Shown: one piece after another, positions 58,646-61,764 of the stretch
How the letters are laid out: each line of letters opens with the position of its first letter
Numbering within the stretch: position 1 is the stretch's first letter
DNA from: Eledone cirrhosa
Taxonomy: Eukaryota
Assembly (NCBI GenBank): GCA_964016885.1
Contig: OZ024742.1
Location: 216,628,001 to 216,692,000 of the forward strand
DNA: 64,000 bases
Direction of reading: 5' to 3'
The notes under the pieces: model-generated
The model's input: only the letters and a program-made list of their open reading frames with translations
Database searches by the model: none
Told to the model about the DNA's origin: nothing
Made by a program: the position numbers and the translations under genes

Positions 58646-58880
58646 CAGTTTAAATGTTTATCTCTCTCTCTCTTTCTCTCCTTTCTCTTTCTCTCTCCTT
58701 CCTCCTTCTTTTACTCTTCCTCCGTTATCCTTTCCTTCTTTTTTCCTTTTTTCCTCTTCCTTCCTTTTTTTCCCCTTCCTTCCCTTTTTTCCAACCTCCT
58801 TTTAAATTTATTTATCATATGTTGATTTGACACTACCTTGCTCACAAGTGTTTTTTTAAGCTTCATATCATGCCTCCCTA

Positions 58881-58947
58881 TTTTATCTGATGAGAACGCA
58901 AATATCGTCCCAGGATGATATTTGTTTTTGAAATGCGCATAATAACA
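58881..58947 (+). ncRNA. Hammerhead family A in autonomous-type PLE 3' pLTR
   Basis: ttttat-CTGATGA-gaac-gcaaatatcgtc-ccag-gatgatatttgt-tttt-GAAAT-GCGC-ATA-ataa. Confidence 0.82.
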
Positions 58948-59150
58948 TACATGGAACATTTTTAACCATCTTTTAATTTCTTCTTCTTATATATATATAT
59001 ATATATATATATATATGTATATATATATATATATATATATATATATATATATATATATATATATATATATATATATATATAGTCGTGGAACACTGGAAGG
59101 TAATATCCGTAGTGGTAGGGATGTGTATGGTTATAGGAACTATACACATC

Positions 59151-59190
59151 CCGACCTGAAGATCCGCGAAGGTGAAACAATTGTTCTCGG
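59151..59190 (+). ncRNA. Minimal hammerhead (family H)
   Basis: ccgac-CTGAAGA-t-cc-gcgaa-gg-t-GAAAC-AATT-GTT-ctcgg, with a C-C mismatch at the first stem I pair. Preceded by a 15-bp hairpin at 59118-59152. Confidence 0.65.
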
Positions 59191-59441
59191 TATGGTGAAC
59201 TAACTGTTGTGTAACCACTTCTATATATATATATATATATATATATATATATAAATATATATATATATATATATATATATATATATATATATATATATAT
59301 ACATATATACATTTTAATATATATCAATATTATAATTATACATACATATATATATATATATATATATATATATATATATATATATAACGAAGGGAATGTG
59401 GTAAGGAATCAGGTGGACCATAACGCACCAAAGTACTCAAT

Positions 59442-59528
59442 ACCCCGACGGCTGAGCTCAAGCCGTTTCGACGGCTAATTCTGGACCAGAATTAGCCGTC
59501 GAAACGACTTGAGCTCAGCCGTCGGGGT
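59442..59528. repeat. 43-bp-arm palindrome made of hammerhead 3' halves
   Basis: One mismatch, 1-nt centre at 59485. Arms read GAAAC-gRc-ttgagctca-gcc-GTC-gggg. Confidence 0.9.
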
Positions 59529-59717
59529 CTTACTCGTTCCTATATATATATATATACATTTTAATATATCAATATTATAATTATACACACATACATACAT
59601 ATATGTGTGTATAATTATAATATTGATATATATTAAAATGTATATATGTATATATATATATATATATATATATATATATATATAGTAATAATAATAAAAT
59701 TGAAGACTAAAATCCAA

Positions 59718-59772
59718 AGAGTTTCAGAAGATCCCGTTAAGGGTGAAAGCAGCGATTCTTTGCTTAAACTTT
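59718..59772 (+). ncRNA. Hammerhead (family I, U4A core, CUU triplet)
   Basis: agagttt-CAGAAGA-t-ccc-gttaa-ggg-t-GAA-agcag-cgattct-ttgct-T-aaacttt. Confidence 0.62.
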
Positions 59773-61764
59773 AATCTGTTATTTTAATATATATATATAT
59801 ATATATATATATGTGTGTGTGTGTGTGTGTGTGTGTGTATATATATATATATATATATACACACACACACACACACATATATATATATATATATATATAT
59901 ATATATATATATATATATATATACATACAAATATATATATGTGTGTGTATTTAAAAGGTAAACAGAAATAACAACACAATCGGTAAAGTATGTAGAAGGA
60001 ATATATTAGATTAAGGCTGAAATAGCAAGGCTTTCATCAGAAGAAAGAATGAGAAATTAAAAAGATTGAAGGGACGTGCAGGGCGGAATCGGAAAAAATG
60101 TTTGTAGAGAAAAATAACAGGTCCATTCATATTACCATTTCTTGGTAAACTATTGATGCTGGCGTTTTGTGTATGATATACTTTTTTTTAGAAAAGTGGA
60201 TGATGGAGCGCGTGTACCTGAAATGGAAAAAAAACGCTTTGTATATAGAGCTATAAGTGTGCGCATAAGCATGCGTGTGTGTGAATGTATGTGGTGTGTT
60301 GAGTTTGTATATTTATATATATATCCCCATATATATATAAATATACAAACTCACGGGCGAAAGCATATAAATCAGAACCTTCTGACTATTGGGAATGCCC
60401 TGTCCCGTTATACCAACACAAACCTCTCCTATTTCATTTTTCTCTCCTCCAACAAATAAGCAAATTCTTTCAAACATTTTACTTTATCACTACACGGCAT
60501 AAACATAAAGCAGCTTCTCCTATGGAAATGTTGGCAGACAGCAACTGTTGCTGCCTCCATACACATTATCATAAAATCTTCTTAACTTTGCAGACAGTTC
60601 TATCTTATCCCACCATACGGCTCATATTTCATGAATTGTTATTTTTTATAACGAAAAAAACAGTTGTACCATGTATATCTACATGTTCATGTTCTTTCAT
60701 ATTTATATTATCTTCCTATCTGTACAGCTAGCCTGCTTTTCTTTCTGATTTCACTGGAGTCATCTAACATGATAAACCCTCACACATGCATAGAAATACA
60801 CGCTCACTCAAAGACACACCACACACATACAAAGTTATCACACATTCACGAATACACTCATAAAAACAAAAACTCAGTCTCACACAAATTCACACACACA
60901 CACACATTCACACACAAACACACGCAGACACACACACATTCACACACAAACACACGCAAACACACACATATTCACACACAAACACACGCAAACACATTCG
61001 CACAAACACATGCTAACACTTGTATATACAAGGGAGAAATAAAAGCAAACACATAATTATAAACCATCAAACTTACCATCGCTAATCACAATAGGAATTT
61101 TCGGAAAAATCAATAAAAGCAGGTGTAACGGTTAAAAGAACGTATACGTCGCTAATACTTAGCAAATCGACGTGTGAATAGAACGCTTGGGGAGTCTATC
61201 AGAGAGACATAGTTAAAATAATTAGAGAATATACCTAAAGCTTATTCGTGTGTGTGTGTAGTGAAAGGAATAAGTGTGGAGGAGAGTGGGGAATTGCCGA
61301 GTTGATTTAACTATCTAAAACTCTTAAACGGGGGGAATATTGAGTAGATTCGAAGTATTTTATGATATAGCTTTCCTTTAACATCTCATCAGACAACTGA
61401 TCATAGTATTTTATGAAGAGGTGACGATTTAATGCTAGATAAACTGATATATTTCCAAGTCATTTCTTCTTTGAATACGAACTGATAGTAAAGTTGTCTA
61501 TCGTACTTTACCATGAAGTCTACACACATACACATACATAAATGCATATATACATACATGATGGTTGCTCCCTTGTTATCGAGTATGGCCATTGCACGTT
61601 ATACCATCATTAATAATTATTAGTCAATTATATCGTGCAATGCCTGAGCGTGGAAATTTTTTTTCAAGTGAGGAAAGACTGTGCACTGAGCCAATCCCAC
61701 ACTCTGAGCGACAGTAGCTATAACCCGAAAAGAAGAAGAGGTCAACATCATCGGTAACTACTTA

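What the first reader, a model, noticed from the sequence alone, without database searches (positions are those of the whole stretch)
58815..59790. Four different ribozyme cassettes strung on (TA)n spacers within 1 kb
Seen directly downstream of the plus-strand Naiad: family A (58881), family H (59151), a palindromic half-hammerhead (59442) and family I (59718), each isolated by TA tracts. The three complete motifs are co-oriented on plus. Inference: either serial targeting of the TA tail, or 3' read-through capturing cassettes into an array that a single transcript could self-process.
Basis: partly seen in the sequence, partly recalled or inferred. Interest (0 to 1): 0.75.

Follow-up and report, generated by a model that had tools for sequence, protein, structure and literature searches.

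The report
Pile-up of Hydra retrotransposon ends
The four ribozyme-shaped pieces are the leftover ends of four different Penelope-type jumping genes that likely landed one after another in the same TA repeat; such pile-ups are ordinary in this animal genome, show no shared direction elsewhere, and this one is predicted not to cut itself efficiently.

Summary
The motifs are real and at the stated places, but they are not a ribozyme array. The upstream element is a Hydra-clade Penelope-like element (RT, then CxCX5C, then C-terminal endonuclease), not a Naiad, and motif A is its own 3' hammerhead. H, J (the half-hammerhead) and I are 5'-truncated 3' ends of three other Hydra-type families, each traced to RT-endonuclease copies elsewhere. 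An unselected 800-kb sample holds 228 such ends from 19 families, the same density as this window. Clusters match a TA-tract null (8 of 80 blocks vs 7.5 expected). Neighbouring hammerheads are 46 same-strand vs 44 opposite, and none of 28 other A copies carries such an array. The spacers contain copies of a 34-mer that occurs only at this locus and lies upstream of A, so the cluster was built in place, not captured by read-through. This locus's A and H copies have broken stem I pairs and need homodimers, J lacks half its core, and I has a family-wide U4A core. No cleavage or RNA data exist. The scan noted U4A, U3-A8 and such pile-ups before on other DNA of this genome.

The parts
55445..55497 (+). 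Decayed end and microsatellite of an old repeat family (about 80% identity to other copies); older inverted twin of spacer sequence T
   Evidence: (D7)
55811..55860 (+). Locus-specific sequence T between two TA tracts, just upstream of element A's 5' junction
   Evidence: 34-mer has 2 exact hits in 3.0 Gb, at 55820 and 59607
55891..58988 (+). 5'-truncated, broken Hydra-clade Penelope-like element (family A): RT frame 56135-57403, CxCX5C linker, C-terminal GIY-YIG-type endonuclease to about 57750 (stops and frameshifts), 3' UTR with an internal duplication at 527-nt spacing; ends without tail at a TA tract
58879..58949 (+). Element A's own type I hammerhead: core 58887-58893, GAAA 58930-58933, palindromic stem III ATGCGCAT, predicted site after 58941; local A>C at 58946 shortens stem I
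59082..59221 (+). Family H two-armed insertion: inverted tail piece (59082-59117), short inverted body, sense body with hammerhead (core 59156, palindromic stem III ACAATTGT, site after 59185); local G>C at 59155 breaks pair 2.1-1.1
59302..59347 (-). Inverted copy of T inside the H-J spacer (55777-55890 vs 59273-59386: 114 nt, 97% complementary, TA runs included)
59387..59541 (+). Family J two-armed insertion: inverted tail (59387-59443), inverted and sense arms centred on 59485, cut off inside helix II so the first half of the core (UUGAAAA in long copies) is missing; GAAA 59501-59504, GUC after 59523
59556..59655 (.). Inverted then direct copy of T (palindrome) inside the J-I spacer
59685..59788 (+). 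Family I two-armed insertion: 37-nt inverted tail joined at an AG microhomology to the body; hammerhead with family-wide CAGAAGA (U4A) core at 59725, U.U at 10.1-11.1, site after 59765; identical to the family majority

Best explanation
The cluster is the 3' ends of four different Hydra-type Penelope-like element families lying in one TA tract, likely inserted there one after another by their own endonuclease and reverse transcriptase. Shown: each piece is the 3' end of a separate RT-endonuclease family, with its hammerhead in the 3' UTR. H, J and I each have one inverted arm ending at the tail end and one sense arm ending at an internal site, with TA on both sides. Inferred: the endonuclease opens both strands of a (TA)n tract; the RT primes from both ends at the two start sites on an uncut element RNA; both cDNAs stop early and join back to back, leaving 100-160-bp two-armed stubs. 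Each insertion likely leaves TA on both flanks and so renews the target. Fold-back copying at the self-complementary TA likely duplicated the local sequence T between events. The shared + orientation is chance. The locus is predicted to be poor at self-cleavage: A and H are dimer-type motifs present once each, with local stem I damage, J lacks half the core, and I carries U4A.
For: Parents: RT (YRDD), then CxCX5C, endonuclease and hammerhead in long copies of J (L305, L306), I (L309, L310), H-type (L311, L312) and A; the J, I and H RTs are only 28-47% identical to A's. Two-armed anatomy: 155 of 162 two-armed inserts pair one tail end with one body end; 3' ends are bimodal, matching the two RT start sites of PMC11167929. 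Uncut template: 1 of 91 5' ends lies within 3 nt of a cleavage site. TA targeting: 182 of 237 arms have (TA)4+ within 150 nt 3' of the site vs 20% of control positions (first-pass arm set); TA tracts vs insertions per block rho 0.80. Density 228 arms/800 kb vs 19/64 kb in the window; blocks with 3+ families in 1 kb 8 of 80 vs null 7.5 (or 5.7), with 4+ 1 of 80 vs 1.3 (or 0.4). Orientation 46/44. Mixed-orientation 4-family clusters at L236 (unselected) and L042. T unique to the locus. Stem III duplexes A-A -10.5, H-H -6.4, A-H -0.6 kcal/mol; site-closing pairs at most 0.05 in the folded array.
Against: The order and timing of events are not resolved: differences from the family majority (A 3/126, H 1/79, J 2/56, I 0/67) are too few, and no empty-site allele was seen. 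A uniform null is exceeded (8 vs 2.7 blocks, p=0.005), so clustering is real and is explained only if TA tracts are the target. H's parent was traced through a sister subfamily (up to 94% identical over the shared stretch), not the window's exact subfamily. A third, unplanned test using tail-defined polarity gave 21 same / 39 opposite (p=0.027, pairs not independent), which pure independence does not predict, though it runs against co-orientation. Flank duplication like T was seen in 0 of 56 other I/J loci (low-complexity masked), so that step is unusual. Folding cannot show activity.
Confidence: 0.87

Rival explanations
1. 3' read-through from element A captured H, J and I elsewhere and carried them here as one transduced unit.
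For: All four pieces share polarity on + and lie directly behind A.
Against: Spacer sequence T is unique to this locus and lies upstream of A's 5' junction, so the H-J-I stretch was not copied from another site. 0 of 28 other A copies carry such an array (listing). A ends at its normal body end.
Confidence: 0.02
2. The cluster arose by serial insertion but was kept as a functional multi-ribozyme module that processes one transcript.
For: Three motifs keep both core halves on one strand; I has a monomer-type stem III; protein-assisted cleavage is known for a Penelope-like hammerhead (PMC11167929).
Against: The window's A and H copies carry private stem I mutations (58946; 59155, found in 5 of 94 H copies) that lower pair 2.1-1.1 from 0.83 to 0.20 and from 0.78 to 0 relative to sister copies. 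No heterodimer. Co-oriented triples 5 of 23, as chance gives.
Confidence: 0.04
3. The stubs and the T copies came from one complex break-repair event with several template switches among different element RNAs, not from separate insertions.
For: Three T copies interleave with the stubs; all four pieces share polarity; such flank duplication was absent from 56 other loci.
Against: H, J and I each have both a tail end and a body end, each abutting TA, as stand-alone insertions do; T has an older inverted twin at 55445-55497, so fold-back has happened at this site before.
Confidence: 0.07

Closest known systems
Hydra clade of C-terminal EN+ Penelope-like elements, e.g. Hydra-1_Obim (Craig et al. 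2021, PMC8557442; seen: outline, passages, sections 6 and 11, supplement passages)
   Same: RT then C-terminal endonuclease, CxCX5C linker, CxxC and CxH around the E and N residues, 3' hammerhead, (TA)n insertion, 5' truncation, inverted arm, tail at one end.
   Different: The four hammerheads differ from the one listed for Hydra-1_Obim (compared by eye). Tails are about 65-90 nt here vs 30-40 bp described for Naiads and other PLEs. Family I has U4A; J has U3-A8 with a long helix II.
Naiad clade (same paper)
   Same: (TA)n preference, 5' truncation, inverted arms, tail.
   Different: Naiads have an N-terminal endonuclease and lack canonical hammerheads; here the endonuclease is C-terminal and hammerheads are present.
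Hammerheads of metazoan PLEs, incl. the U3-A8 variant of Schistosoma Cercyon (Cervera and de la Pena 2014, PMC4209133; seen: parts 1-2 of 4)
   Same: Mostly solitary motifs from truncated PLEs, opposite-strand pairs 100-700 bp apart, palindromic helix III needing dimers, U3-A8 variant.
   Different: Scale: about 0.3 arms per kb here vs about 2,000-9,000 motifs per genome reported there (different search methods). No U4A in the parts read.
Poseidon element PAc of Anolis (Frangieh et al. 2024, PMC11167929; seen: parts 1-2 of 4)
   Same: Two RT start sites bounding the tail, both DNA strands cut and extended, uncut RNA as template.
   Different: Different clade, AT-rich rather than (TA)n target; the mechanism is transferred here by inference.
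Metazoan non-LTR retrozymes (bioRxiv 10.64898/2026.07.22.740005, part 1 of 5 seen; PMC7229834, search listing only)
   Same: Type I hammerheads in short non-coding units related to PLEs.
   Different: Retrozymes are tandem repeats of one monomer; here four unrelated families appear once each and each has a coding parent.

Membership tests
Hydra-clade PLE | RT followed by C-terminal GIY-YIG endonuclease | tested here: met
   Window element A; long copies of J, I and the H sister subfamily.
Hydra-clade PLE | CxCX5C linker | tested here: met
   All four families.
Hydra-clade PLE | [quoted passage not shown] | tested here: met
   A, J, I and H translations; A read across a frameshift by eye.
Hydra-clade PLE | 3' hammerhead and (TA)n insertion | tested here: met
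Hydra-clade PLE | N-terminal RWK and DKT motifs | tested here: inconclusive
   All 11 long copies fetched were 5'-truncated; one DKT lies 2.4 kb upstream of an H-type RT match without shown continuity.
Hydra-clade PLE | Placement in the Hydra clade on an RT tree | not tested
   Reference sequences were seen only in the supplement text and compared by eye; Pfam gave no family for 3 of 3 window proteins.
Naiad | N-terminal endonuclease | tested here: not met
   Endonuclease follows the RT.
Naiad | Lack of canonical hammerhead | tested here: not met
   Hammerhead contiguous with the 3' UTR.
Type I hammerhead ribozyme | Core C3UGANGA9 / GAAA / UH with stems I-III | tested here: inconclusive
   A and H meet the core; I has U4A (102 of 112 copies CAGAAGA); the window's J lacks the first half (long copies UUGAAAA in 29 of 30, fold with all three stems).
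Type I hammerhead ribozyme | Site-specific self-cleavage | not testable with these tools
   No assay; no RNA run listed.
Non-LTR retrozyme | Tandem repeats of one hammerhead-bearing monomer, no coding parent needed | tested here: not met
   Four unrelated single units, each continuous with an ORF in longer copies.
Type-SGC (permuted) hammerhead | Core blocks in S-G-C order | tested here: not met
   Long J copies have the first core half upstream in ordinary type I order; PMC10085705 passages seen.

The most novel reading that the evidence does not exclude
The hammerheads of these Hydra families serve mainly as structural signals for their own reverse transcriptase, not as cutters. Copies are made from uncut RNA, family I spread to about 20,000 copies with a U4A core, and family J copies break off and join inside helix II so often that tens of thousands of half-ribozyme palindromes result. 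Insertion into TA is coupled to fold-back copying of host flank, which makes TA tracts self-renewing landing pads.
Probability: 0.3. Interest if true: 0.55.

Novelty: new member of a known kind. Interest (0 to 1): 0.2.

Why it matters
As an array it matters little: it is one of likely thousands of such pile-ups (1 of 80 unselected 10-kb blocks had four families in 1 kb; by hand about 3,700 genome-wide, exact 95% range roughly 100-20,000). It is useful as a compact record of how Hydra-clade elements insert: two unequal arms, uncut template, renewed TA target. It also places natural core variants (U4A, U3-A8) side by side for a test of the open question whether Penelope-like elements need their ribozyme to cut.

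Tried and rejected
Rfam scan of the window: no hammerhead among the 150 listed of 204 matches, so motifs were called by descriptor and homology. Pfam: nothing for 3 window proteins. Monomer folding z-scores were uninformative (-1.3 to +1.9). First clustering null with unmerged TA tracts overshot (14 and 6.9 blocks) and was replaced by merged tracts. First arm set (237) held duplicates from alternative folds; 11 library members were dropped and counts redone (228). Seven small clusters that did not look like real families and 48 singletons were left out of the library, so densities are lower bounds. H, J or I as self-replicating mini-elements: rejected as the main reading, because the window's I junction has 43 exact copies vs 19,559 core hits and junctions in the unselected sample vary. 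J as a permuted hammerhead: rejected. A fuzzy search for T timed out and was replaced. Lunse et al. 2017 on dimeric PLE hammerheads is recalled only; not held. Paper searches listed no report of multi-family hammerhead clusters in TA tracts or of a natural U4A hammerhead; only titles and abstracts were seen for most, and the library lacks subscription journals.

Full report
Observation. The sequence shows three hammerhead-shaped motifs on + with cores at 58887, 59156 and 59725 and predicted sites after 58941, 59185 and 59765, plus a 93-bp palindrome (59439-59531) holding only the second half of a motif. The window lies in a 3.0-Gb animal genome. Each motif belongs to a large family: 19,559 exact hits for an I 29-mer and 52,348 for a J 24-mer, with 0 for reversed controls.

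The upstream element is not a Naiad. From 55891 it encodes a broken RT followed by CxCX5C and a C-terminal endonuclease with CxxC, E, N and CxH. Craig et al. 2021 (PMC8557442, sections 6 and 11) give exactly these features, with canonical hammerheads and (TA)n insertion, for the Hydra clade, whereas Naiads have an N-terminal endonuclease and lack canonical hammerheads. Motif A is continuous with this element's 3' UTR, here and in other copies of varying 5' truncation. It is the element's own hammerhead, not a TA-isolated cassette.

H, J and I are ends of three more families. Walking upstream from longer copies reached RT, CxCX5C and endonuclease coding sequence directly ahead of each motif: J, I and H through a sister subfamily up to 94% identical over the shared stretch. 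Their RT pieces are 28-47% identical to A's (11 long copies fetched, all 5'-truncated). Long J copies have a whole hammerhead with UUGAAAA (29 of 30; all three stems form), the U3-A8 swap already reported for Schistosoma PLEs (PMC4209133) and elsewhere (PMC3088659 section 8). Family I has CAGAAGA in 102 of 112 copies. U10.1.U11.1, seen in H and I, is also known; U4C is mentioned there, U4A was not found in my searches.

Anatomy and mechanism. In the window H, J and I each begin with an inverted tail piece and end at the internal body end; A ends at its body end. Across 264 loci, 155 of 162 two-armed inserts pair one tail end with one body end. In the unselected sample 3' ends fall in two groups, and only 1 of 91 5' ends lies within 3 nt of a cleavage site. 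This matches the in vitro work on the Anolis element PAc: both strands cut and extended, two RT start sites bounding the tail, uncut RNA as template (PMC11167929). Transfer of that mechanism to these families is inference. J arms start 30-50 nt upstream of the site in 32 of 54 cases, inside helix II, with varied junctions; part of this peak may reflect divergent subfamilies ending the alignment.

Is the cluster special? I took 80 evenly spaced 10-kb blocks from the four largest contigs. They hold 228 hammerhead-bearing arms of 19 families, 142 with both core halves; the window holds 19 in 64 kb, the same density. The sample predicts the exact genome counts well (14 J and 7 I hits in 800 kb). 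Arms track TA tracts (182 of 237 vs 20% control; rho 0.80). Blocks with three or more families in 1 kb: 8 of 80, against 7.5 or 5.7 when the 183 insertions are dealt to merged TA tracts; with four: 1 of 80, against 1.3 or 0.4. A uniform null is exceeded (2.7, p=0.005), so clustering is real and follows TA. L236 and L042 show four or more families, including A, J and I, in mixed orientation.

Orientation. Adjacent different-family complete motifs within 1 kb: 46 same, 44 opposite (80 unselected blocks plus 184 unique of 210 search loci); triples co-oriented 5 of 23. Behind 28 other A copies, 9 have a neighbour, 7 arms same and 9 opposite, none an H-J-I array. An unplanned test by tail polarity gave 21 same and 39 opposite (p=0.027; 6/5 in the unselected part; pairs not independent).

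Built in place. The spacers contain three copies of a ~50-nt sequence T that also lies just upstream of A's 5' junction. Its 34-mer has two exact hits in the genome, both in this window; the other two copies are inverted and differ slightly. DNA from upstream of A cannot come with a 3' read-through from another site, so the cluster was assembled here. Fold-back copying at TA is my inference; 0 of 56 other loci showed such duplication in a masked search.

Could one transcript process itself? Stem III of A and H is a palindrome, the dimer type (PMC4209133); homodimers give -10.5 and -6.4 kcal/mol, the A-H pair -0.6, and each family occurs once. The window's copies carry private damage: 58946 in A's stem I, 59155 at H's pair 2.1-1.1 (5 of 94 H copies), 59507 in J's stem III. 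In the folded 976-nt array the site-closing pairs have probability 0.05 or less. This is prediction only; protein-assisted or intermolecular cleavage is not excluded, and no RNA run was listed.

Prior notes. The scan recorded the U4A family, U3-A8 variants, Hydra assignment and dense hammerhead fields on other DNA of this genome; my reading was stated before the first look-up and rests on my own calls. Supplements of the bioRxiv retrozyme preprint could not be seen and might list related families.

Verdict. An ordinary pile-up of ends of new Hydra-type families; serial TA targeting is likely (0.87), read-through capture or a selected array unlikely. Interest 0.2.

Noticed in passing
L211-L290 (80 x 10 kb of C1-C4): Hammerhead-bearing ends occur at about 0.29 per kb (228 arms, 19 families), which would be several hundred thousand genome-wide, far above the thousands per genome reported in PMC4209133.
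   Followed up: partly
L256:7339-9754 and L290:3108-5272: Tandem arrays of one hammerhead family (F4) at about 420-500-nt spacing, retrozyme-like; L290 has an opposite-strand copy at one end.
   Followed up: no
family J, e.g. window 59387-59541, 36881-37165: J is the commonest family, and only 3 of 54 unselected arms keep the whole core; truncations crowd inside helix II.
   Followed up: partly
loci L001-L290: Neighbouring A/H/I/J insertions lean to opposite tail polarity (21 same, 39 opposite); unexplained and possibly an artefact of non-independent pairs.
   Followed up: partly
window 55290-55520: Old repeat (about 80% to other copies, 671 candidates) with a CTGATGA that does not fit an ordinary type I layout; not examined for a permuted hammerhead.
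   Followed up: no
window 55467-55798: 155-nt inverted arms (81%) of another repeat family between TA tracts, upstream of element A.
   Followed up: no
window 57862-58110 and 58389-58645: Internal direct duplication (94%) in element A's 3' UTR, not seen as such in the other A copies aligned.
   Followed up: partly
window 7094-9216 (-), 5506 (-), 1548-2306 (-): Further Hydra-type RT and endonuclease fragments, one with DKT, near another A-family hammerhead pair.
   Followed up: no
L042:513 and 607; L108:1013: A diverged sister of family I that keeps CAGAAGA in L042 while stems and loops differ.
   Followed up: no
L185, L186, L187, L198 (C2:338.33-338.46 Mb): Near-identical 3-kb stretches repeated at about 44-kb spacing, a segmental tandem duplication.
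   Followed up: no
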